From NCBI RefSeq assembly GCF_051903065.1, contig NZ_CP178438.1: a stretch of DNA of 64,000 nt. One strand, written 5' to 3'. The DNA comes from Escherichia coli. GTDB lineage: Bacteria > Pseudomonadota > Gammaproteobacteria > Enterobacterales > Enterobacteriaceae. Position 1 is the first letter of the stretch. Every line of letters begins with the position of its first letter. A program made the position numbers and the translations under genes. The notes under the pieces were generated by a model. It was not told the DNA's origin, made no database searches, and was given only the letters and a program-made list of their open reading frames with translations. Of the stretch, positions 8,272 to 39,498 are shown one piece after another.

Positions 8272-8287
8272 CTGTATATAAAACCAG
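8272..8287. promoter_or_regulatory. LexA box 1 upstream of recN
   Basis: CTGTATATAAAACCAG (CTGT-N8-CCAG), overlapping the promoter region about 50 bp upstream of recN. Confidence 0.7.
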
Positions 8288-8293
8288 TTTATA

Positions 8294-8309
8294 CTGTACA
8301 CAATAACAG
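8294..8309. promoter_or_regulatory. LexA box 2 upstream of recN
   Basis: CTGTACACAATAACAG, a perfect CTGT-N8-ACAG SOS box. Confidence 0.8.
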
Positions 8310-26041: not shown

Positions 26042-26109
26042 AGGGAAAGGTTGCCATCAGGGGAAGAAAGGCGGCAATGCTGCAACTTGTATCAGTGCTG
26101 ATACAAAGA

Positions 26110-26556
26110 TCACCCCGCCAGCCATTGCAGAATCATGTCACGGGTCATTGCCTCAACATCATCATTTACACCCAGAAGGCGACGCTCTGCGTAACGCACC
26201 TCCGGTCCCTTACGACTGACGCGATCTCGCAGGCCGTAATGGTGAACGCGGGCAATGCGCTGCACCTTGCCTTCAAACTGCACGCTGGCAGAGTCGGTGC
26301 TGGCGGCAGTTTTCAGGTATTTTGTGGTGCGCAGCTTTGCAAACATCTGACGTTTGATACGGCCTTTTTTACTGCGTGCTGTTACCCGTCGCGGTTCATA
26401 GCTGCTGCCGTCAGGGTTGCGCTGCATCCTGATATTCTGCTGCTGTGTCCGGCGAAGTTCCTGCGCCAGCTGGCGCATCATGCGGCTTCTCGTGGCTGGT
26501 TCCAGATTCGCCAGCAAGGCACTCAGCCAGTCGTCCACCTTCTGCAGTTCAGCCAC
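26110..26556 (-). CDS. Tail completion protein S
   Basis: 148-aa ORF at the P2 S position. Confidence 0.75.
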   Translation of the reverse strand: MAELQKVDDWLSALLANLEPATRSRMMRQLAQELRRTQQQNIRMQRNPDGSSYEPRRVTARSKKGRIKRQMFAKLRTTKYLKTAASTDSASVQFEGKVQRIARVHHYGLRDRVSRKGPEVRYAERRLLGVNDDVEAMTRDMILQWLAG

Positions 26557-28978: not shown

Positions 28979-29629
28979 TCAGCGGCTGTCATTGCGCAGT
29001 CTGCGCTCCAGCTGCTGTTTGTCTTTTTTCACGCCACAGCGGGGATCGAGCTGTAGCGCATGGTTGAGATGATTAAGGGCGAACGCCGGATTGTTTTCAC
29101 TCAGAACAGCGCCAATCGCTTTATGCAGACGCGCCCGTGACTGGTCCGGCATATCCATACCGTCTGTCAGCTCCAGCGTCTGCAGCAACAGATCGGCATC
29201 AAAGCCGGTGGCGGCAAGCATTGCGCTCTGGGCTGCATCTGCCATTTCCTCTGCCAGCACGGTCTGCACGTTGCGGTTACCCAACGGCATCACCCAGCCA
29301 TGACGCAGGGCGTGACGCCCGATCTCCAGCGCCCCGGCATAATCTCCGGCATCAATGCGCCACAGCATCACGTACATCAGCACGTCATCCTGCTGTACGC
29401 CTCCGGCAGTCAGGACACCCTCTGCCCAGGCGGCGTACTTCGGCAGCAGTTCCACCTTAATTTCCGCTTTTTTGACCGTGGACTGAACGCCCTTGAGACG
29501 GCGGCGGTCTTCCGCCAGTTGCAGCAGCATCAGGTCATAGCCCGACGCGTGGCGAACGCTGCCGCCCTCGCGGGCGGCCTGTTCAGCCTGAACGCGCAGG
29601 CGATGCTGCCGTGCGGGACTCAGGCTCAT
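28979..29629 (-). CDS. Terminase endonuclease (small) subunit M
   Basis: 216-aa ORF at the P2 M position. Confidence 0.8.
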   Translation of the reverse strand: MSLSPARQHRLRVQAEQAAREGGSVRHASGYDLMLLQLAEDRRRLKGVQSTVKKAEIKVELLPKYAAWAEGVLTAGGVQQDDVLMYVMLWRIDAGDYAGALEIGRHALRHGWVMPLGNRNVQTVLAEEMADAAQSAMLAATGFDADLLLQTLELTDGMDMPDQSRARLHKAIGAVLSENNPAFALNHLNHALQLDPRCGVKKDKQQLERRLRNDSR

Positions 29630-29632
29630 GGG

Positions 29633-30691
29633 TTACGCTCCGGCTTCTGCTGCAGCGGCGCTGAAATCGCCAATCTGGATGTTTTCCACCAGTGCGGCGC
29701 AGCGGTAATCCTCAACCACATAGGCTTCGTTAACGGATTCAAAGTTTTCAATCCGGTCACGTTTCGGGTTGTCGATAACTGAACGGCGGCGGGTGTCTTC
29801 CTGCCAGTAGATGGACAGGTTATCCAGACGGGTGATCAGCAGCGCATTCGGCGGGAAGAACGGCGCACGCACGGCCTGCAGGCCACCCATGCGTTTCTGG
29901 CTGATGATCATATCGGCAGCCAGTTTTTCACTGTTTTCCTGCTCTTTGTTGACCAGCGGGAAATACTTGTCAGACAGCAGTTCACGACCGCAAATCACCA
30001 CCAGATCGTCATCGTCCTGGTAGACCACGTCGATAAGCTCATTGACGGCATCCATCACCACGGCGTCCAGGTTGGCATATTCGCCACCTTTACCGACTTT
30101 CACCGCACCCGGTGTGGTTTCACCGCCCGTGGTGGTGCTGCCCATGACGTGATCCGGTGCATCTTCACGGATTTTCTGCAGCCAGCCTTTGTTCACATCC
30201 TGCAGCAGCGGGCTTTCGCTACGGTTGGAGGTTTTCGCACGCTTCACGCCGTTAAAGCCGATCATGATGCGGTCCAGTGCCTGACGTTTTACGATGGCGT
30301 CACGGATACGCACCTGGAAATCCTGAAACTTCGCCCACAGGTCCAGCTTCGCGTAGGTCAGCACCGTGTCAAAGTTAGTCTGCTCGCATTTATATTCCAC
30401 ATCGACCATCAGCGTCGGATCGACAGGCTCACGCTCTTTAGCTGTGGTATCAGTGGTTCCGGCAATGGTGCTGCCAACACCCAGCCCCAGCAACTGACCA
30501 GACTGCTCAGTCACTGGCGTGACGTTAATCAGCGTCAGGAATGCGGCGGACTGCTGGATCTGATCTTCCAGCGTCTGCTGCACAGACGGCTCTACAGTGA
30601 ACTTGCTGGACAGTTCTTCAACGGCCACACCGTTCAGACGCGCCAGCTGCTGCAGGTAAGCGTTAAAAGCAAAGCGGGTATTCTTCTTCAT
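29633..30691 (-). CDS. Major capsid protein N
   Basis: 352-aa ORF at the P2 N position. Confidence 0.9.
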   Translation of the reverse strand: MKKNTRFAFNAYLQQLARLNGVAVEELSSKFTVEPSVQQTLEDQIQQSAAFLTLINVTPVTEQSGQLLGLGVGSTIAGTTDTTAKEREPVDPTLMVDVEYKCEQTNFDTVLTYAKLDLWAKFQDFQVRIRDAIVKRQALDRIMIGFNGVKRAKTSNRSESPLLQDVNKGWLQKIREDAPDHVMGSTTTGGETTPGAVKVGKGGEYANLDAVVMDAVNELIDVVYQDDDDLVVICGRELLSDKYFPLVNKEQENSEKLAADMIISQKRMGGLQAVRAPFFPPNALLITRLDNLSIYWQEDTRRRSVIDNPKRDRIENFESVNEAYVVEDYRCAALVENIQIGDFSAAAAEAGA

Positions 30692-30707: not shown

Positions 30708-31541
30708 TCAGCAATTGGTCAGAGTGTCAGCGTGGGCGTTACCGCCTGTTGCACGCTGGCGGTAGTCCTGGCGGCTGTCTTCATGACTCAGCTTATTCAC
30801 CAGTTCGTTAAAGGCGGTCTGCTGTGCCTGCAGGGCAGTCTCCAGCTCAGACAGACGTTCTTCCTGCTCAGACAGGGATTTTTCGGTGCGTGCGCTCAGG
30901 TTTTGCTGCTCAGTGGCGACCAGCTCCACGGCCTTATGCACATCAGAGAACCGGGCATCGTCGGACTGCTCTTTTTTGGTGAACAGCGCCGTGACGCGGG
31001 CAAACAGGGACGGCTTGTCCTCCTGGATTTCTTCCAGTTCGATCACCGTTTCCTCTGCGGCGGTAAAGAGATTGGCGGGATTCTGCTTGCGGTTTGCCAG
31101 CGGGTTATGGGCTGCACTGGCGCTGAATGTCAGCATTTCAGTGCCCAGACTGGCAGGGTCATCAGTGGCAGCCAGGCCGACCAGGTAGGCTTTGCCCGTA
31201 TCAGCAAACTTCGGGCTGACTTCCATAGAGGTGAATAATTTCTGGCCTTTTTTCACCAGTTCCACCAGGGATTCCGTTGGCTCAACGTCGGCATACAGCG
31301 CCATCTTGCCTGCCAACGGACCTTCCGTGATTTCTTCAGCAAACAGCGCCGTCACCTTGCCGTAGCGGTTAAAGGTGCTGTCCGGCAGATAAGACTTGAT
31401 GTGCTCAAGGTTAATCAGCGCGGTATACACCGCCGGGTTGTAGCTGGCTGCCATCTGTTCCAGCCATTCACGCTGGATTTCGCGTCCGTCGGTGGTGGCA
31501 CCTTCCACCCCGATGCGAAAACGCTTTGCTTTCACTGTCAT
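30708..31541 (-). CDS. Capsid scaffolding protein O
   Basis: 277-aa ORF with coiled-coil C-terminal part. Confidence 0.85.
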   Translation of the reverse strand: MTVKAKRFRIGVEGATTDGREIQREWLEQMAASYNPAVYTALINLEHIKSYLPDSTFNRYGKVTALFAEEITEGPLAGKMALYADVEPTESLVELVKKGQKLFTSMEVSPKFADTGKAYLVGLAATDDPASLGTEMLTFSASAAHNPLANRKQNPANLFTAAEETVIELEEIQEDKPSLFARVTALFTKKEQSDDARFSDVHKAVELVATEQQNLSARTEKSLSEQEERLSELETALQAQQTAFNELVNKLSHEDSRQDYRQRATGGNAHADTLTNC

Positions 31542-31683
31542 GAGCCGTGCTCCGTTAGAAAAAACTTACTGGAGCCTTATGGTTGCGGTGATGGGGGCAG
31601 TGAAACAATGCGCGGTATTTGTACCGACAACCACACAAACCGCAGGCGGGGAAAGCCTTCATTCAAGGCTGTAGGTTTGTGCC

Positions 31684-33450
31684 ATGAACACCACACTGAC
31701 ACCCGCAGATCTCGATCCCCGTCGGCAGGCCATGCTGCTGTACTTTCAGGGATACCGCGTCGCCCGCATTGCTGAAATGCTAGGCGAGAAAGTTGCAACC
31801 GTTCACAGCTGGAAAAAACGCGACAAGTGGGGTGACTATGGGCCGCTGGATCAGATGCAGCTCACCACCGCCGCACGCTACTGCCAGCTCATTATGAAGG
31901 AGCACAAAGAAGGGAAAGATTTCAAAGAGATTGACCTGCTGGCGCGCCAGTCGGAGCGCCACGCGCGGATCGGCAAGTTTAACAATGGCGGCAACGAAGC
32001 CGACTTAAACCCTAACGTCGCCAACCGCAACAAAGGCCCACGCCGTCAGCCGGAAAAGAATGTTTTCACCGATGAACAGATTGAGAAGCTGGAAGAAATC
32101 TTCCATTCCTCCATGTTCAACTACCAGCGCCACTGGTGGGAAGCCGGAAAAACCAACCGCATCCGCAACCTGCTGAAGTCACGCCAGATCGGCGCAACCT
32201 TCTATTTTGCCCGTGAAGCCCTGATTGACGCCCTGCTGACCGGACGTAACCAGATTTTCCTTTCCGCCAGCAAGGCACAGGCCCACGTCTTTAAGCAGTA
32301 CATCATCGACTTCGCCAAAGAAGTGGAGGTGGAGCTGAAAGGTGATCCGATGGTGCTTCCTAACGGTGCCACGCTTTACTTCCTCGGCACCAATGCCCGC
32401 ACTGCCCAGAGTTATCACGGCAACCTGTATCTGGATGAATATTTCTGGATACCGAAATTTCAGGAGCTGCGCAAAGTGGCTTCCGGTATGGCTATTCACA
32501 AAAAATGGCGACAAACCTATTTTTCCACGCCATCCAGCCTGACACACAGTGCTTATCCGTTCTGGTCCGGTGCGCTGTTCAACCGTGGACGCAACAAAGC
32601 CGACAAGGTGGACATCGACCTGTCCCACAGCAATCTGGCCCCCGGCCTGCTGTGCGCAGACGGGCAATACCGCCAGATAGTCACCGTGGAAGATGCGGTG
32701 CGCGGCGGCTGTAACCTGTTCGACCTCGACCAGCTACGCATGGAGTACAGCCCGGACGAATACCAGAACCTGCTGATGTGCGAGTTCGTGGACGATCTCG
32801 CGTCCGTGTTCCCGCTCAGCGAACTGCAGGCGTGCATGGTGGACAGTTGGGAAGTCTGGACCGACTTTCATGCACTGGCCCTGCGCCCGTTTGGCTGGCG
32901 CGAGGTGTGGATCGGTTATGACCCGGCAAAAGGTACGCAGAACGGCGACAGCGCCGGATGCGTGGTGGTGGCACCGCCAGCCGTGCCAGGCGGTAAGTTT
33001 CGCATTCTTGAGCGTCACCAGTGGCGCGGGATGGACTTCCGCGCCCAGGCTGACGCCATCAAAAAACTGACCGAACAGTACAACGTGACCTATATCGGCA
33101 TCGACTCGACAGGTGTCGGTCACGGGGTTTACGAGAACGTGAAAGCGTTCTTTCCTGCCGTCCGGGAGTTTGTCTACAACCCCAACGTTAAAAACGCCCT
33201 GGTACTCAAAGCCTACGACATTATCAGTCACCGTCGTCTGGAGTTTGACGCCGGACACACCGACATAGCGCAGTCATTTATGGCAATCCGTCGCGCCACC
33301 ACCGCCAGTGGCAACCGCCCGACCTATGAAGCCAGCCGCAGCGAAGAAGCCAGCCACGCCGATCTGGCCTGGGCAACGATGCACGCACTGTTTAACGAAC
33401 CGCTGCAGGGCGAGTCCGCCAATACCAGCAATATTGTGGAGATTTTTTGA
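31684..33450 (+). CDS. Terminase ATPase (large) subunit P
   Basis: 588-aa ORF; divergent from O and coupled to Q. Confidence 0.9.
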   Translation: MNTTLTPADLDPRRQAMLLYFQGYRVARIAEMLGEKVATVHSWKKRDKWGDYGPLDQMQLTTAARYCQLIMKEHKEGKDFKEIDLLARQSERHARIGKFNNGGNEADLNPNVANRNKGPRRQPEKNVFTDEQIEKLEEIFHSSMFNYQRHWWEAGKTNRIRNLLKSRQIGATFYFAREALIDALLTGRNQIFLSASKAQAHVFKQYIIDFAKEVEVELKGDPMVLPNGATLYFLGTNARTAQSYHGNLYLDEYFWIPKFQELRKVASGMAIHKKWRQTYFSTPSSLTHSAYPFWSGALFNRGRNKADKVDIDLSHSNLAPGLLCADGQYRQIVTVEDAVRGGCNLFDLDQLRMEYSPDEYQNLLMCEFVDDLASVFPLSELQACMVDSWEVWTDFHALALRPFGWREVWIGYDPAKGTQNGDSAGCVVVAPPAVPGGKFRILERHQWRGMDFRAQADAIKKLTEQYNVTYIGIDSTGVGHGVYENVKAFFPAVREFVYNPNVKNALVLKAYDIISHRRLEFDAGHTDIAQSFMAIRRATTASGNRPTYEASRSEEASHADLAWATMHALFNEPLQGESANTSNIVEIF

Positions 33451-34475
33451 TGGGAAAGAGTAAGAAAAACCGCGCTGCGGCGACGAATCAGCTCAAGCAT
33501 AAAAGCCAAACTTCAGCCGAAGCATTCAGCTTCGGTGATCCCATTCCAGTACTTGACCGCCGCGAACTGCTGGACTATGTGGAATGCGTACAGACGGATC
33601 GCTGGTATGAGCCACCCGTAAGTTTTGACGGACTGGCGCGAACATTCCGCGCCGCCGTTCACCACAGCTCACCGATTGCAGTGAAATGCAACATTCTGAC
33701 CAGTACCTACATCCCTCACCCGCTGCTCAGCCAGCAGGCTTTTTCGCGTTTTGTGCAGGACTATCTGGTTTTTGGTAACGCCTACCTGGAGAAACGCACG
33801 AACCGGTTCGGTGAAGTGATCGCCATTGAGCCTGCTCTGGCAAAATACACCCGACGCGGGTTAGACCTTGATACCTACTGGTTTGTGCAATACGGTATGA
33901 CAACCCAGCCGTATCAGTTCACGAAAGGCAACATTTTTCATCTGATGGAACCTGACATTAACCAGGAGATCTACGGCCTGCCCAGCTATCTTTCTGCTAT
34001 TCCGTCCGCCCTGCTCAACGAGTCCGCCACGCTGTTCCGCCGCAAGTATTACATTAACGGCAGCCATGCAGGTTTCATCATGTACATGACCGATGCCGCG
34101 CAGAACCAGGAGGATGTGAACAACCTCCGCAACGCGATGAAAAGCGCCAAAGGTCCAGGCAATTTCCGCAACCTGTTTATGTACTCGCCTAACGGCAAAA
34201 AAGACGGACTTCAGATCATTCCTCTGTCTGAAGTCGCGGCGAAGGATGAGTTTTTAAACATCAAGAACGTGAGCCGGGACGATATGATGGCTGCGCATCG
34301 TGTTCCGCCACAGATGATGGGGATCATGCCGAATAATGTTGGGGGGTTTGGGGATGTGGAGAAGGCCAGCCGCGTGTTTGTCCGAAATGAATTGATGCCG
34401 CTTCAAAAATGTCTTGAAGGTATCAATTGTTGGCTAGATGCAGATGTAATAAAGTTTAACCAATACATTTTGTAA
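33447..34475 (+). CDS. Portal (capsid vertex) protein Q
   Basis: 342-aa ORF, size and position of P2 Q. Confidence 0.9.
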   Translation: MMGKSKKNRAAATNQLKHKSQTSAEAFSFGDPIPVLDRRELLDYVECVQTDRWYEPPVSFDGLARTFRAAVHHSSPIAVKCNILTSTYIPHPLLSQQAFSRFVQDYLVFGNAYLEKRTNRFGEVIAIEPALAKYTRRGLDLDTYWFVQYGMTTQPYQFTKGNIFHLMEPDINQEIYGLPSYLSAIPSALLNESATLFRRKYYINGSHAGFIMYMTDAAQNQEDVNNLRNAMKSAKGPGNFRNLFMYSPNGKKDGLQIIPLSEVAAKDEFLNIKNVSRDDMMAAHRVPPQMMGIMPNNVGGFGDVEKASRVFVRNELMPLQKCLEGINCWLDADVIKFNQYIL

Positions 34476-34483
34476 ATTCCTTC

Positions 34484-34511
34484 GGTAAAAGGCCGCTATG
34501 CGGCCTTTTTT
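34484..34511. terminator. Bidirectional terminator between Q and the cargo operon
   Basis: AAAAGGCCGC-TAT-GCGGCCTTTTTT hairpin between convergent gene ends. Confidence 0.8.
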
Positions 34512-35202
34512 AATTTGCGTCATCATTTTTTTTATTTTCTAAAGACTCAATATACCCTCGCAAATTAAATTCTTTATTTTCTCTGAGTTTAGGTCCTTCT
34601 TTAGTATCTGAGCCTCGTTGCTCACGTAAACTTTTATTCAAAGCATCGATCAATTCTTGTCTAGAGATTTCCGTTGCAATTAACCCATCAAAATATCTCT
34701 TCATTTTTCTCGCGCTCTCGGTTACTTTAACAACTTCAAAACCAAGGCAGAGCAAATAAATTAGCGTTGTTATTGTAAATCCAGTATCTACAGAGATAAA
34801 ATAGCCAATATCGAGCACTTTCTTAAGTGATTCCAAGGGCATAACCATGCACAATAAAACCAAAAGCAAACCAGTGCCAAGATATAAATAAGTCATTGAG
34901 TTTCTTTCAATCAGCTTGAAGTACTCATCTCTCTGACCTTCAAAGCTAGCAACAATCTTAGGGGGTGTTTTTTTTGGAAGATCGAGGTCTCGAATTTTAT
35001 CCTGAAGATCTACGTATCTTTTAATAAGTAAACCGACTATGGCAGCAGTGATTAATGAAAGCGTTTTCGATAAAATATTGCCCATTTCCACGAGCACATT
35101 TAATTTATAATTAATCAGATATACTACACTCGATGCCAATACTCCACTTAAAATGGATAATATTATATAAAACGCATATCGCTCCACTCGATTTTTAATC
35201 AT
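34510..35202 (-). CDS. Cargo protein B: predicted 4-TM membrane protein with charged C-terminal tail
   Basis: 230-aa ORF with four hydrophobic helices (approx. residues 9-30, 43-60, 96-114, 133-149); AT-rich; start overlaps the stop of the upstream ORF (ATGA). Confidence 0.7.
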   Translation of the reverse strand: MIKNRVERYAFYIILSILSGVLASSVVYLINYKLNVLVEMGNILSKTLSLITAAIVGLLIKRYVDLQDKIRDLDLPKKTPPKIVASFEGQRDEYFKLIERNSMTYLYLGTGLLLVLLCMVMPLESLKKVLDIGYFISVDTGFTITTLIYLLCLGFEVVKVTESARKMKRYFDGLIATEISRQELIDALNKSLREQRGSDTKEGPKLRENKEFNLRGYIESLENKKNDDAN

Positions 35203-36230
35203 GGATTTATTACCCCATCAGCTAACAATCTGAGCAACCACTCTACCATTTCCTCACAAACGCTATCAATAACAGGCATCCCATTATTATATTCAATATT
35301 GACGGTGTCTTTTATTTGTATTTCGTCATTTCTTAAAATACCTGCGCCTTTTAACTCTATGGTTAATGCTTCATCACGGTTATCGATAAGAGCCTCCGTA
35401 ATTTTCCTTAAAATATTTTGTTCCTCATCATTAGCTTTATATTTATACCCTATAGAAACATCTATCGTTAAATGTTCTCGAGACATGTCAACTGAAACAT
35501 CCTGTGATGCATTGTGTTTACGCAACACATCAACTCTGTGCTCACCGATAAGAGATTTCAATAATTCACTAGCGACATCATCTACTCCATCTCCATAAGA
35601 GGATAGAGGCAGCTTCAAGCTTACATTTTTTACATTGCTACGCATCAGCAATTCATTAGTCAAACGTAAATTTCCTGCTTGTAATATAATAAAGTTATCA
35701 ACATCAACCCTTAGATTATCCTTCAAAATGTAATTAATATAATTTTCAATATCTTTAATTCTAATTGCACGACTTTGCAATATTATTACATGATTTTTGA
35801 CAATCCCGATATATGCAACACTATCTAAATATTCTTTCGGAACACTTCCAGTAAGCTTTAATGCTTCATAAGCCAATCGATTTTTTTTATATTCTGAAAC
35901 ATCAAAAACTGGCACACTATTCCCTGGCTCAATATAAACTATTTCACCAAAAAATATACCATTCCGTTCGAAGGAATCAGATAAAACCATGTGCGCGTGG
36001 CTGCTAACACAAGGGTCACTATCTCCAGTTTCAAGATAGTAAATTCTGTCCTCAACGGTTGGAAACTTGTGATTAACAATTTCGTTCATACGATTCTGCA
36101 AATCACTTGCTAAAAGAGCATCCTTTTTAGGAAGCATTACTGCGTGTCGATAGTGTAACGCTTTAACTTTTGAGGGATTACTGGCCATGAAACATCCATT
36201 ATTAATCTTAGATTTAGTGATATGGAACAA
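35199..36230 (-). CDS. Cargo protein A: soluble protein of unknown function
   Basis: 343-aa ORF (start may be the internal MASNPSK); AT-rich; no motif recognised; translationally coupled to the 4-TM ORF. Confidence 0.7.
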   Translation of the reverse strand: MFHITKSKINNGCFMASNPSKVKALHYRHAVMLPKKDALLASDLQNRMNEIVNHKFPTVEDRIYYLETGDSDPCVSSHAHMVLSDSFERNGIFFGEIVYIEPGNSVPVFDVSEYKKNRLAYEALKLTGSVPKEYLDSVAYIGIVKNHVIILQSRAIRIKDIENYINYILKDNLRVDVDNFIILQAGNLRLTNELLMRSNVKNVSLKLPLSSYGDGVDDVASELLKSLIGEHRVDVLRKHNASQDVSVDMSREHLTIDVSIGYKYKANDEEQNILRKITEALIDNRDEALTIELKGAGILRNDEIQIKDTVNIEYNNGMPVIDSVCEEMVEWLLRLLADGVINP

Positions 36231-36274
36231 TCATACAATCTGTTAATTTTTCTTGCCACAACTCCTTTTCGCGC

Positions 36275-36294
36275 GCTCGTATCCCCGCCACGCC
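36275..36294. other. Putative cos (cohesive end) site, P2/186-like
   Basis: Reverse complement GGCGTGGCGGGGATACGAGC shares GGCGTGGCGGGGA with the remembered 186/P2 cos core; match is partial. Confidence 0.35.
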
Positions 36295-36498
36295 TGCCCG
36301 CTTTATGTAGTGGTTTTCATGCAGGTGCATGATCTACGCAAAAGCCCGCCAGTTCTGGCGGGCCTTAGCAAAAACGATCCTCAAACGATCATGCGATCTC
36401 ATGCGGCATAGACATGCACTACAGAGCTAACGCCTCGCAAGGGCTCGTTGTTCAACCTTGCTGACGCCAGAAACAAGTTCAGACGCCAGCAACGTTTC

Positions 36499-36804
36499 TT
36501 AATGCAGCCAGCTGTCGTCTTCCCACACCTTCTGCATAATTTTCATCACTTGTTTTCTTTCTTCGTCCAGTTGCAGTCCGGTCAGTTCCACACCGTTAGA
36601 GCTACCTTTGCGGATACGAATTACCGTTTTGGGATACAGGGGGCGCAGATTGCGGTAAAGCTCGGATTCAAGGGCGTCCAGTGTAGACTGGCTAATCTTC
36701 TGCTCTTTATCGATCATTATTTCAATGCGCATAAAAGTCACCTCAGCTGATGACATCCATTGAGCGGTTGTATTCGTGGGTTCTGATTTTTGCCATGAGT
36801 TCAT
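36499..36804 (-). CDS. DinI-family protein (Tum/DinI-like, SOS module)
   Basis: C-terminal part MRIEIMIDKEQK...LDALESELYRNLRPLYP...QKVWEDDSW resembles DinI; true start may be the internal Met. Confidence 0.65.
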   Translation of the reverse strand: MNSWQKSEPTNTTAQWMSSAEVTFMRIEIMIDKEQKISQSTLDALESELYRNLRPLYPKTVIRIRKGSSNGVELTGLQLDEERKQVMKIMQKVWEDDSWLH

Positions 36805-36973: not shown

Positions 36974-36989
36974 CTGTTTATATTTACAG
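36974..36989. promoter_or_regulatory. LexA (SOS) box in the prophage
   Basis: CTGTTTATATTTACAG, perfect CTGT-N8-ACAG, in an AT-rich promoter-like region upstream of the minus-strand small ORF and DinI-like gene. Confidence 0.75.
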
Positions 36990-37083: not shown

Positions 37084-39498
37084 TTAATACAGGTTTCGCC
37101 ACTTATCATCTTCCTGCAAACGCTGGTTCCGATAGAAGATACGCAGGCCTGCTCCTGACGGAATACTGCCACCGCGAAGGAGTAAATCGACCTCTTTCTC
37201 GCTGCCATCAAATCCTCTGGACTTCAGTTCATAGACGAGCTGCTGTCGCTGATGATCTGTAATTCGCTGTTTGTAGTCTTTACGCCGTTTCGGCTTAACC
37301 AGGCGTAACCTTGCTGCCAGTTCCCGGCGCTCTTTTTTGCTCATACTGTGCAGATAATCGTGCAACTCCTTGTCATCCATGCGGGTAATATCCGTTCTGG
37401 TGTCCCCATCAGCTGATTTATCTTTCTCCTGTTGGTTCAAATTTTCAGCAAGGGGACAGTTATTGCCACGAGTCCAAGGGGCGCAAGCGCCCTGGTCGGC
37501 TACCGCCTCCTGAACGTCAACGGCTTTACGAACCATTTTCCACTTCACTGCATGAGTGCAGATCTTGCCCTCTGCAATGGGTGACCAGATGCCATAAATA
37601 CGAATGCCGTGATCGCCATAGGCGGTCGGCTCTTCGTTAATTTCATAAGCAGTTCTGATGAGGTGATATTTGCGGGGAACCAGTACGCCACCCTGCTTCA
37701 TGATGTAAGTGGCAAAACAACCAGCATCAGCAGCAGCCAGGATGGCATCAAGGCGCGGGTTATCCAGTACCGGCGCACCTGCTTTTTTGTCGCCCTGTTG
37801 CCTTGCCGCCTGACCAGCCAGCAATCGCAGTTCACGGTAAGCCTGACGCCCCGGAATACCAAAGAAGCGGAATTGCTGAACACGATGCAGAGACGCCCAG
37901 GCATTAACGTATTCAGCGTTATCACGCAGGGATTTACCCGTTTCCTTGCTGATCTCGCCAGCCAGACCACGCCCGTCAATGTTCTTACTAATGTATTTCG
38001 CAATGTAGCTTGTCGGCGTTCCTTTGCGCGGGTTTATCAGCTCAGACTTAAAGCGTGGCCCCGTGTTATTGCCCAGCTCCTCGCGGTCTTCACGGATGGC
38101 AAACTTACGCAACAATGCAGTAATGGCGCGGCGGTCTTTTTTGCGCATGAAACACAACAGGTGCCAGTGAACTGTGCCGTCATGATGCGGCTCAGCCACC
38201 CGCACGCCATACCAGCGCAACCCGGCTTTGTGCATAGCCTTACGAAATGCAGCAAACATGCCGACCAGATAATCGCTGCTTTGTCTTACTGTCGCGTTGG
38301 TCCAGGTCGGGTTTGGCCTGCCGTTATTTAGCGTGGAATGGAAACGTGACGGACAGGTGATGGTGTAGAAAACGGCGCAGTCACCACGCATTTCCGCGAT
38401 AAGCTCCAGGCCTTTAACACAGGCCATCATCTCGTTGCGGCGATGCGCCGGGTTGCTGCTGCTGGCGTTTACCACATCCTCCATGTTCAGCGTGTCGCCG
38501 TCTTCGTTCACCAGTTCATGAGAACGGAAAAACTCCAGCGACTTACGGCGCTGCTCACGTTTATGCATCACGGCTTCATAGCTAACATAGGGAGATGCTT
38601 TTTTGCTGACCAGGCAGACAGCACGCAACTGCTCTTCCCGCAATTCGCAACGCATCTTCCATAATTTCCGATACCACCAGTCGGCGCACAGCATACGCGC
38701 CAGCGAACCCGGAATGAGTTCATAAGGCACAGGTTTGCGGCGGTTTCTTTTCCGGCGGAGTTGCTCAAACGCAGGCGGTATGACATCCAGTCGCAGGGTT
38801 TCTGCAGCCACCTTTTCCCATGTCTTGCGGATTTCTTCTGGCTTAACATCATCGGAGGCGTACAAATCACCACAAGCGGCATCAAGACACATGCTCATAT
38901 GCGCAGCGACAAGGGTAGACAGGCGTTTCACCTGATCCTGACTCATTTCAGGCAGGATCAGCAGACCGTCCAGCCCCTCATGGCTTGCCATAAAACGAAA
39001 AGATGCAGATAGCTGGCTGTCGCGTACATGCTCCAGTCGTTCCAGACATGGCTTAATCGTCTCACGCAAATAGCGGGAATAAGCCTTTGGCCTGCCCATG
39101 CTGCTGAAATATTCAATACGTTGCATCAGCGGCTTGCTGATATGGGAAGGCTGGGCGTTGACGTCAGCCAGAATGACCATGTCTGGATTAAAACGCTGCT
39201 GCTCATGCGCCATCTTTGCCCGGCTAATGAGCTTATCCTGCTCCATTTCGCGTTGGACAGGATCACGGGATTCATTAAAGAAATAATGCTCCCAGACCTG
39301 ATCACTCAGTGCCTCGCGGCGCAGTTGTTCCTGCTCGTTATCGGTAGCGTACAGAGTGATCAGGTTTGAAAGCGCAGAAACCGGCGCAACTTCCGCCGGG
39401 TCCAGATAAGGGTTAATGGCCTTTTTCGGGCTGTTCCATGAGAACGCTGCGGCAGCCTCGTTAAAGCCGCAGCAGTTGTTCATATCGGCATGACTCAT
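37084..39498 (-). CDS. Replication initiation endonuclease A (rolling-circle, HUH-type)
   Basis: 804-aa ORF with HxH motif (GTVHWHLL); P2 gene A position. Confidence 0.88.

What the first reader, a model, noticed from the sequence alone, without database searches (positions are those of the whole stretch)
36275..36294. cos-like sequence places the cargo operon between cos and the portal gene
The reverse complement of 36275-36294 begins GGCGTGGCGGGGA, matching the first 13 nt of the 186/P2 cohesive-end core as I remember it. If this is the true cos, the cargo operon lies at the far left end of the packaged genome, an unusual moron position compared with P2, where Q is about 200 bp from cos.
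Basis: partly seen in the sequence, partly recalled or inferred. Interest (0 to 1): 0.4.

Follow-up and report, generated by a model that had tools for sequence, protein, structure and literature searches.

The report
P2-type phage cos packaging site
The flagged sequence is almost certainly the DNA-packaging cut site (cos) of a P2/186-like prophage of E. coli, and the accessory genes wedged between it and the portal gene occupy a long-known insertion hotspot, so the layout is ordinary for this phage family.

Summary
The reverse complement of window 36294-36276 is GGCGTGGCGGGGATACGAG, whose first 13 nt equal the 186 cohesive end.

It is not an isolated 13-mer. It lies in a 151-bp block (36269-36419) that is homologous to the cos regions of 186, P2, P4 and Salmonella phage SEN8. 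The SEN8 authors annotated this identical 19-mer as cos. No other significant cos match exists in the window, and both terminase genes and the portal gene are intact.

The claim that this position is unusual does not hold:
- In 115 non-identical viral contigs carrying a P2-family cos core, 50 of 89 with a scorable portal gene have more than 400 bp between cos and the portal gene.
- For this cos subtype the figure is 26 of 28.
- Fels-2, SEN8, Cartapus and P4 share the layout.
- The slot was described as a hotspot by Dodd and Egan (1996), Nakayama (1999) and Rousset (2022).

The parts
36276..36294 (-). Predicted 19-nt 5' cohesive end, GGCGTGGCGGGGATACGAG. Nicks are predicted between 36295|36294 on the minus strand and 36276|36275 on the plus strand.
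   Evidence: In register with the annotated cos of P2 and 186. Identical to the 19-mer named as cos in phage SEN8 (PMC5427200). The cut positions are inferred by homology and were not measured.
36269..36323 (-). 55-bp cos core, positions -29 to +26 relative to the first base of the cohesive end. This is the segment shared by P2 and P4.
   Evidence: Ungapped identity to the window is 53/55 for SEN8, 43/55 for 186, 42/55 for P4 and 41/55 for P2. The 55-bp core concept comes from Ziermann and Calendar 1990, as cited in PMC5694545 and PMC9594776.
36269..36419 (-). Whole conserved cos module, -125 to +26, flanked on both sides by non-conserved DNA.
   Evidence: Column information is 1-2 bits across -125..+26 and about 0.1 bit outside it, in 42 non-identical IMG/VR loci with the same 19-mer. 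Matches in 1280 of 5426 E. coli genomes stop at about window 36270.
36390..36419 (-). Distal cluster of three direct GCATG repeats, starting at 36417, 36404 and 36394. Candidate terminase recognition repeats.
   Evidence: TGCAT/ATGCA motifs occur about 3 times per locus at -140..-101 in 107 unique loci of all cos subtypes, against about 0.05 per 20-nt bin elsewhere. The repeats are also visible in P2, P4, 186 and SEN8. Their function is inferred.
36318..36331 (-). Proximal CATGC / GCATG pair at -37 and -28. The GCATG lies inside the 55-bp core; the CATGC lies just upstream of it.
   Evidence: About 2 motifs per locus at -40..-21 in 107 loci.
36340..36363 (-). Stem-loop plus T-run (GCCCGCC AGAACT GGCGGGC TTTT). 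Likely the terminator of the SOS/DinI operon. It is positionally equivalent to 186 t95b.
   Evidence: Read directly from the sequence. 186 has an annotated t95b at the same offset from cos. The scan tool did not flag it.
36499..36804 (-). DinI/Tum-like gene, the last gene before the right end. NCBI's PGAP annotation of a 99.5% identical prophage calls a shorter 77-aa version of it.
   Evidence: Pfam DinI, E 1.3e-22. PGAP annotation.
36974..36989 (+). Perfect LexA-box-like palindrome, CTGTTTATATTTACAG, upstream of the small ORF and DinI operon.
   Evidence: It corresponds by position to the 186 p95/LexA site upstream of tum. Pattern match only.
36230..36259 (-). Promoter-like site (GTGGCA, 18-nt spacer, TATGAT) for the cargo operon, starting 10 nt after the cos core.
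   Evidence: It matches 9 of 12 consensus positions, and the number of such sites in the region is at chance level, so this is weak.
35199..36188 (-). Cargo gene 1, 329 aa, with a predicted RexA-like fold.
34510..35202 (-). Cargo gene 2, 230 aa, with four hydrophobic segments and a charged C-terminal tail. It overlaps gene 1 by 4 nt.
   Evidence: It is paired with gene 1 homologues in every context examined.
34487..34509 (.). Terminator hairpin with A/T runs on both sides (likely bidirectional), between the cargo operon and the portal gene.
   Evidence: 10-bp stem with 6 GC pairs.
33447..34475 (+). Portal gene (P2 Q / 186 W homologue), transcribed toward cos.
   Evidence: Pfam Phage_portal. 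PGAP annotation of the near-identical prophage.
31684..33450 (+). Large terminase subunit (P2 gpP homologue).
   Evidence: Pfam Terminase_5, Terminase_6N and Terminase_6C, all matched over their full length.
28979..29629 (-). Small terminase / endonuclease subunit (P2 gpM homologue).
   Evidence: Pfam Phage_term_smal matched over profile positions 1-130 of 130, E 2e-40.

Best explanation
Window 36269-36419 (minus strand) is the functional cos site of an apparently intact P2/186-like (Peduoviridae) prophage of E. coli. The prophage spans roughly 13.4-44 kb of the window and is inverted relative to the P2 map.

Inferred mechanism, by homology with P2 and 186. After induction, the terminase (gpP homologue 31684-33450, gpM homologue 28979-29629) binds the module. 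Binding is probably through the GCATG repeats at -125..-95 and -37..-24, all of which lie on the side that becomes the right end. The terminase then makes staggered nicks 19 nt apart, giving 5' overhangs of GGCGTGGCGGGGATACGAG.

Consequence for cargo. Only 7 bp beyond the overhang (CGCGCGN, up to +26) are conserved on the left-end side. Foreign DNA is therefore tolerated from +27 onward. Here a two-gene cassette with its own promoter-like site and terminator fills the 1.8 kb between cos and the portal gene. In the virion chromosome the order is: left end, cargo, Q, P and so on to A, the SOS/DinI operon, the terminator, the cos recognition repeats, right end.

For: - Exact register with the annotated cos of P2, 186 and P4. 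The upstream 130 nt shows the same motif order in each: GCATG repeats, a stem-loop in 186, P4 and the window, TGCATNAAAACC, then the 19-mer and (T/C)GCGCGC.
- The window holds a single significant match to cos modules.
- The 19-mer is identical to the one annotated as cos in the plaque-forming phage SEN8.
- A sharply bounded conserved island at -125..+26 sits between unrelated flanks in 42 non-identical loci.
- TGCAT motifs are positionally enriched in 107 loci of all subtypes.
- 1280 of 5426 E. coli genomes share the DinI-cos segment, with homology ending at about 36270. Only 2 share the cargo.
- The terminase genes and the portal gene are full length. The prophage is collinear with an annotated prophage that carries no pseudogene flag on any phage gene.
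- Cargo lies between cos and Q in Fels-2, 813R9, SEN8 and Cartapus, and in 50 of 89 surveyed loci.
- Portal identity to the window's portal separates by cos subtype. It is 77-95% in loci with the ATACGAG subtype and 55-68% in the others.
- The literature already describes the hotspot.
Against: - No virion-end data exist for this prophage. As far as I could find, none exist for any phage with the ATACGAG subtype either; the SEN8 and Cartapus cos features are annotations by homology.
- 4 of the 19 overhang positions differ from 186.
- Position +26 is A here, where most relatives have C. That column is variable among relatives.
- The role of the GCATG repeats is inferred from conservation only. 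Part of the -125..-30 conservation could reflect the terminator or something else rather than packaging.
- The promoter call is at chance level.
Confidence: 0.88

Rival explanations
1. The site is a relic. The prophage is defective, or its cos no longer works because of the divergent overhang (ATACGAG instead of AAAGCAT) or because the cargo insertion removed sequence that packaging needs on the left side.
For: 4 of 19 overhang positions differ from 186. Everything beyond +26 is unrelated to P2 and 186. No experimental end mapping exists.
Against: - The same 19-mer and the same +26 boundary occur in phages isolated as virions: SEN8, Cartapus and Yersinia phage MLG42.
- They also occur in 42 non-identical loci under strong conservation.
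- P4 likewise diverges from P2 right after +26 and is packaged by P2 terminase (PMC9122126).
- The packaging genes are intact.
Confidence: 0.07
2. The true cos lies elsewhere in the prophage, for example at the 13-nt match AGGCGGGGAAAGC at 31644-31656 in the intergenic region between O and P. On this reading the 36294 site is a coincidental or secondary copy.
For: The 31644-31656 site matches positions 5-17 of the P2 cohesive end exactly, including the AAAGC part that the 36294 site lacks.
Against: - That match has E 0.1-0.3, which is chance level for this window.
- It has no flanking similarity to any cos module.
- The sequence is not found in the corresponding intergenic region of 186.
- The 36270-36423 match scores E 3e-58 to 8.6e-15 and sits at the canonical map position.
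Confidence: 0.02
3. One reading: the placement of cargo between cos and the portal gene is an unusual, possibly new, genome architecture for a P2-like phage.
For: P2 and 186 themselves have only about 190 bp between cos and the portal gene. P2 carries its morons old and tin on the other side of cos.
Against: - 50 of 89 surveyed loci, and 26 of 28 with this cos subtype, have cargo in this slot.
- Four named phages have the same layout, and P4 carries its variable genes directly after the cos core.
- Rousset et al. 2022 surveyed 18,150 occurrences of the locus between gpA and gpQ.
Confidence: 0.03

Closest known systems
cos of coliphage 186 (Eganvirus), 19-nt end GGCGTGGCGGGGAAAGCAT
   Same: - The first 13 nt of the overhang are identical, and 43 of 55 core positions match.
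- Same upstream order: GCATG repeats, terminator stem-loop (t95b), TGCATNAAAACC.
- Same right-end neighbours: LexA-controlled DinI/Tum operon, then gene A.
- Portal and terminase genes are transcribed toward cos.
   Different: - Overhang positions 14 and 16-19 differ overall (ATACGAG against AAAGCAT; position 15 is the same).
- 186 has 196 bp of non-coding DNA with terminator tW between cos and the portal gene. Here there are 1819 bp carrying two genes.
cos of Felsduovirus phages (Salmonella phage SEN8, Fels-2) and Elveevirus Cartapus
   Same: - Identical 19-mer, and 53 of 55 core positions match SEN8.
- Homology stops at +26.
- Accessory genes lie between cos and the portal gene (PMC5427200).
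   Different: The cargo differs in each phage: a 565-aa hypothetical protein in Fels-2, a hypothetical protein plus an HNH endonuclease in SEN8, and a DUF4145 protein in Cartapus. None of these is related to the cassette here.
[quoted passage not shown] 2022, PMC9122126)
   Same: A variable cassette lies directly next to a conserved cos core, between gpA and gpQ. Turnover is very high: the cos module is in 1280 E. coli genomes and this cargo in 2.
   Different: Nothing in the architecture differs. The text of Rousset et al. 2022 that I read does not say on which side of cos the P2 cargo lies. This survey shows that both sides are used: of 59 loci scorable on both sides, 14 had cargo on the Q side only, 21 on the A side only, 21 on both and 3 on neither.
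Lambda RexA/RexB exclusion system (for the cargo, not for cos)
   Same: - A prophage-borne two-gene operon.
- The second product is a small membrane protein with four hydrophobic segments (PMC11077077).
   Different: - No detectable sequence similarity to RexA or RexB: hhalign probability 0.2, BLASTP E 2.8.
- No Pfam or PADLOC hit.
- Both proteins are larger: 329 against 279 aa, and 230 against 144 aa.
- The model is of medium quality (pLDDT 64), and its C-terminal half is poor.

Membership tests
P2-family cos site | 19-nt cohesive-end sequence of the type GGCG(A/T)GGCGGGGA... | tested here: met
   13/13 with 186 over the first 13 nt, 15/19 over the whole end, and 19/19 with the SEN8-annotated cos.
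P2-family cos site | 55-bp core shared by P2 and P4 (-29 to +26), including TGCATNAAAACC upstream and (T/C)GCGCGC downstream | tested here: met
   41-43 of 55 identical to P2, P4 and 186, ungapped. Both flanking motifs are present.
P2-family cos site | Map position between the gene A / SOS operon side and the portal-terminase operon of a P2-like genome | tested here: met
   The gene order in the window is gpA, small ORF, DinI, cos, cargo, Q, P, then O, N, M.
P2-family cos site | Cognate terminase subunits present and intact | tested here: met
   The Pfam profiles for the large and small subunits are matched over their full length.
P2-family cos site | Terminase cleavage producing 19-nt 5' overhangs in virion DNA | not testable with these tools
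   This needs end sequencing of packaged DNA.
[quoted passage not shown] | Unrelated gene cassettes in different genomes at the same point next to a conserved cos core | tested here: met
   Information content drops from 2 bits to about 0.1 bit after +26 in 42 loci. 1280 genomes hold the cos module and 2 hold this cargo.
[quoted passage not shown] | The cargo provides anti-phage defence or another accessory function | tested here: inconclusive
   There is no hit to known defence models. The RexA-like fold and membrane partner suggest exclusion but do not show it.
RexAB-type exclusion system (cargo) | RexA fold in the first protein | tested here: met
   [not shown]
RexAB-type exclusion system (cargo) | Sequence membership in the RexA and RexB families | tested here: not met
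   No Pfam or PADLOC hit. hhalign and BLASTP against lambda RexA and RexB give no signal.
RexAB-type exclusion system (cargo) | Co-encoded small polytopic membrane partner | tested here: met
   Four hydrophobic segments. The partner gene is conserved next to homologues in E. coli and Aeromonas.
RexAB-type exclusion system (cargo) | Exclusion of superinfecting phage | not testable with these tools
   This needs plaque assays.

The most novel reading that the evidence does not exclude
The cos itself is ordinary, but the cassette beside it (34510-36188) may be a previously unrecognised, highly diverged RexAB-like abortive-infection system. In this reading a RexA-fold sensor is paired with a four-helix membrane effector. 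The cassette moves between the cos-adjacent slots of P2-like phages with different cos subtypes and a satellite-like element in Aeromonas.

A weaker second point is that the GCATG repeat clusters on the right-end side could be the still poorly defined recognition sites of the P2-family terminase. That would explain why cargo is tolerated from 7 bp beyond the left end of the overhang.
Probability: 0.45. Interest if true: 0.45.

Novelty: already known. Interest (0 to 1): 0.15.

Why it matters
For the finding as stated, it matters little. It correctly locates cos and so fixes the ends of the packaged genome and the map position of the cargo. However, the architecture is the textbook cos-adjacent hotspot of P2-like phages.

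It has two practical uses.
- The sharply bounded 151-bp module (36269-36419) is a convenient landmark for delimiting hotspot cargo on either side of cos in P2-like prophages.
- The cargo it delimits here is rare and unannotated, has a RexA-like predicted fold, and is worth testing as a defence system.

Tried and rejected
- **Alternative cos sites.** I searched for a second or better cos in the window with the 13-mer at up to 2 mismatches and with four cos modules. Only chance-level hits turned up, including a 13-mer at 31644-31656 that I rejected.
- **Conserved hairpin.** I looked for a conserved hairpin just upstream of the cut. P2 has CCGCCC...GGGCGG, but 186 and the window do not keep it, so I dropped the idea (by eye).
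- **Boundary on the Q side.** I expected the boundary of the variable region to fall at the terminator, as the title of Dodd and Egan suggests. In these loci, homology to the window ends inside the last 20-85 nt of the portal gene instead, and the window's terminator is not shared.
- **Cargo identity by sequence.** PADLOC, Pfam and NCBIfam gave nothing. A PDB sequence search with the single protein and with the profile gave only chance-level hits (E 0.2 and 1.1). PHROGs gave only a family of unknown function.
- **Profile comparison with lambda RexA and RexB.** No signal.
- **Papers not held.** Ziermann and Calendar 1990 and Odegrip 2006 could not be read. What I say about the 55-bp core and about Dodd and Egan 1996 is second-hand, through PMC5694545, PMC9594776 and PMC9122126.
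- **Direction of packaging.** I did not establish which end is packaged or injected first, and I make no claim about it.

Full report
**1. Observation**

The minus strand of window 36294-36275 reads GGCGTGGCGGGGATACGAGC. The records of 186 and P2 begin with GGCGTGGCGGGGAAAGCAT and GGCGAGGCGGGGAAAGCAC, and both are annotated as cohesive ends.

The exact 13-mer is unique in the window. Hits at up to 2 mismatches are at chance level, with 4 found and 1.89 expected.

**2. Context**

The surrounding genes form a P2/186-like prophage, inverted relative to the P2 map.

| Feature | Window coordinates | Strand |
|---|---|---|
| Small terminase | 28979-29629 | - |
| Capsid | 29633-30691 | - |
| Scaffold | 30708-31541 | - |
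| Large terminase | 31684-33450 | + |
| Portal | 33447-34475 | + |
| Cargo gene 2 | 34510-35202 | - |
| Cargo gene 1 | 35199-36188 | - |
| cos-like site | 36276-36294 | - |
| DinI-like gene | 36499-36804 | - |
| Gene A replication protein | 37084-39498 | - |
| CI repressor | 42294-42926 | + |
| Integrase | 42928-43941 | + |

A LexA-box-like palindrome at 36974-36989 precedes the small-ORF/DinI operon, as in the 186 p95-tum operon.

The host flank is E. coli. The prophage is collinear over about 28 kb with an annotated E. coli prophage in which no phage gene carries a pseudogene flag.

**3. The site is a whole cos module, not a 13-mer**

I aligned the circular junctions of P2, P4, 186 and SEN8 with the window, anchored on the first base of the overhang. 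All five show the same order of elements:
- a cluster of (T)GCAT(G) repeats at about -125 to -95;
- a stem-loop at about -75 to -50 in 186, P4, SEN8 and the window (the annotated t95b terminator in 186);
- TGCATNAAAACC at -29 to -18;
- the 19-mer;
- (T/C)GCGCGC up to +26.

All similarity ends after +26.

The 55 bp from -29 to +26 are the segment that P2 and P4 share. This fits the 55-bp core attributed to Ziermann and Calendar 1990 in PMC5694545 and PMC9594776. The window matches it at 43/55 for 186, 42/55 for P4, 41/55 for P2 and 53/55 for SEN8.

Searching the whole window with the four cos modules gives one significant place, 36270-36423, with E from 3e-58 to 4e-6. A 13-nt match at 31644-31656 in the intergenic region between O and P has E 0.1-0.3. 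It has no cos-like flanks, and the sequence is not found in the corresponding intergenic region of 186, so I treat it as chance.

**4. Comparative evidence that the module is functional**

A pattern scan of IMG/VR returned 120 loci with a P2-family cos core.

- *Sharp boundaries.* Among 42 non-identical loci carrying exactly the window's 19-mer, column information is 1-2 bits from -125 to +26. It falls to about 0.1 bit on both sides, without any gaps being needed. That is a 151-bp island, window 36269-36419, between two unrelated flanks.
- *Motif enrichment.* Across 107 unique loci of all subtypes, TGCAT/ATGCA motifs are concentrated at -140..-101 (about 3 per locus) and -40..-21 (about 2 per locus). 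The background is about 0.05 per 20-nt bin.
- *E. coli genomes.* 1280 of 5426 complete genomes hold the DinI-cos segment, and the alignments stop at about window 36270. Only 2 genomes hold the cargo.
- *Co-segregation.* Loci with the ATACGAG subtype have portals 77-95% identical to the window's. Other subtypes have portals 55-68% identical. The cos subtype therefore travels with the packaging-gene lineage.
- *Annotation.* The SEN8 genome announcement names ggcgtggcggggatacgag as the cos site, and the record starts at that base. This is by annotation, not by end mapping.

**5. Mechanism**

What is shown: the homology, its register, the boundaries of conservation, and intact terminase and portal genes.

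What is inferred from the biology of P2, 186 and P4:
- terminase nicks 19 nt apart, at 36295|36294 and 36276|36275, giving 5' overhangs;
- the recognition determinants lie almost entirely on the side that becomes the right end, with the GCATG repeats as candidates;
- only 7 bp are needed beyond the overhang on the left-end side.

This asymmetry explains why foreign DNA can begin at +27. In the window a promoter-like site starts 10 nt after the core (36259-36230; weak). The cassette ends in a strong hairpin at 34487-34509, with A/T runs on both sides, that abuts the portal stop codon.

**6. Is the position unusual?**

It is not.
- Fels-2, vB_EcoM-813R9, SEN8 and Cartapus all carry one or two unrelated genes between cos and the portal gene.
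- P4 carries gop, beta and cII immediately after the core.
- In the IMG/VR sample, 50 of 89 scorable loci have more than 400 bp between cos and the portal stop (range 192-4145 bp). For the window's subtype the figure is 26 of 28, with a median of 1496 bp. The window has 1819 bp.
- Of 59 loci scorable on both sides of cos, 14 had cargo on the Q side only, 21 on the A side only, 21 on both and 3 on neither.
- Rousset et al. 2022 analysed 18,150 occurrences of the locus between gpA and gpQ and stressed its adjacency to cos.

P2 and 186 are members with the slot between cos and Q empty. P2 carries old and tin on the other side of cos.

**7. The cargo (by-product)**

*Gene 1* (329 aa; ATG at 36188, as in the PGAP annotation of the near-identical prophage):
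- It has no Pfam, PADLOC or NCBIfam hit and falls in PHROG 3482, of unknown function.
- Only 18 homologue clusters were found in 5.8 billion proteins.
- An AlphaFold2 model built on their alignment is of medium quality. Mean pLDDT is 64; the N-terminal half is good and residues 172-290 are poor.
- Foldseek against the PDB puts lambda RexA (8twq) first, with E 2.9e-6 but a TM-score of only 0.34-0.39.
- Profile and pairwise sequence comparisons with RexA and RexB show nothing.

*Gene 2* (230 aa) has four hydrophobic segments and a charged tail.

*Distribution.* Every context read shows the gene paired with a 226-228 aa partner:
- the pair occurs at the same slot between cos and Q in an E. coli 186-like prophage that has a different cos subtype (GGCGTGGCGGGGATAGCAT, 90 nt upstream of the gene);
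- it also occurs next to a P4-alpha-like primase in Aeromonas.

I read this as a candidate, strongly diverged RexAB-like exclusion module. It works like Rex on paper, but it fails sequence-level membership and has not been tested.

**8. Verdict**

The identification as cos is supported at about 0.88 confidence. The claim that the position is unusual is not supported. The feature is already known in kind and, for this exact 19-mer, already annotated in a published phage. Interest in the finding itself is low. The neighbouring cassette is the part that deserves follow-up.

Noticed in passing
[not shown]
   Followed up: partly
L134 4911-6667; L135 5001-6661: Homologues of the same cassette (63% and 45% identity) occur in two other settings. 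One is the slot between cos and the portal gene of an E. coli 186-like prophage with a different cos subtype. The other is next to a P4-alpha-like primase and a P2-type capsid gene in Aeromonas hydrophila. This suggests cassette exchange between phage and satellite hotspots.
   Followed up: partly
window 36390-36419 and 36318-36331: GCATG/TGCAT repeats sit at fixed distances upstream of the cut. They are conserved in position across 107 loci of all P2-family cos subtypes and in P2, P4 and 186. They are likely terminase recognition repeats on the right-end side. I could not check whether they have been mapped experimentally.
   Followed up: partly
window 36253-36411 (plus strand, 52-aa ORF): An ORF spans the cos module. 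Related records annotate 'hypothetical protein' features here, and PGAP calls a pseudogene with an internal stop in a 99.5% identical prophage. These are probably spurious gene calls caused by conservation of the cos DNA.
   Followed up: no
window 43955-45712 (minus strand): A 585-aa protein with a cytidine/deoxycytidylate deaminase domain lies directly beside the prophage integrase. In matching E. coli genomes it is annotated 'anti-phage dCTP deaminase'. [quoted passage not shown] I did not determine whether it is inside the prophage.
   Followed up: no
window 36974-36989: A perfect LexA-box-like palindrome, CTGTTTATATTTACAG, lies between gene A and the small-ORF/DinI operon. This mirrors the SOS-controlled tum operon of 186 and suggests the prophage is SOS-inducible through an antirepressor.
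   Followed up: no
window 34390-34478: Homology between the window and other loci of the same cos subtype ends inside the last 20-85 nt of the portal gene rather than at the downstream terminator. The portal C-terminus and the terminator therefore appear to be exchanged together with the cargo.
   Followed up: no
L133 22451-23973 versus window about 26048-26222: The otherwise collinear prophage of E. coli 2017.17.03CC carries a SIR2-family gene plus a hypothetical gene between the tail-completion and baseplate genes, and an IS2 in the tail-fibre region. The window's prophage lacks both. This is a second variable slot in this phage lineage.
   Followed up: no
window 8272-8309: Two adjacent LexA-box-like sites (CTGTATATAAAACCAG and CTGTACACAATAACAG) lie outside the prophage, presumably upstream of a host SOS gene.
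   Followed up: no
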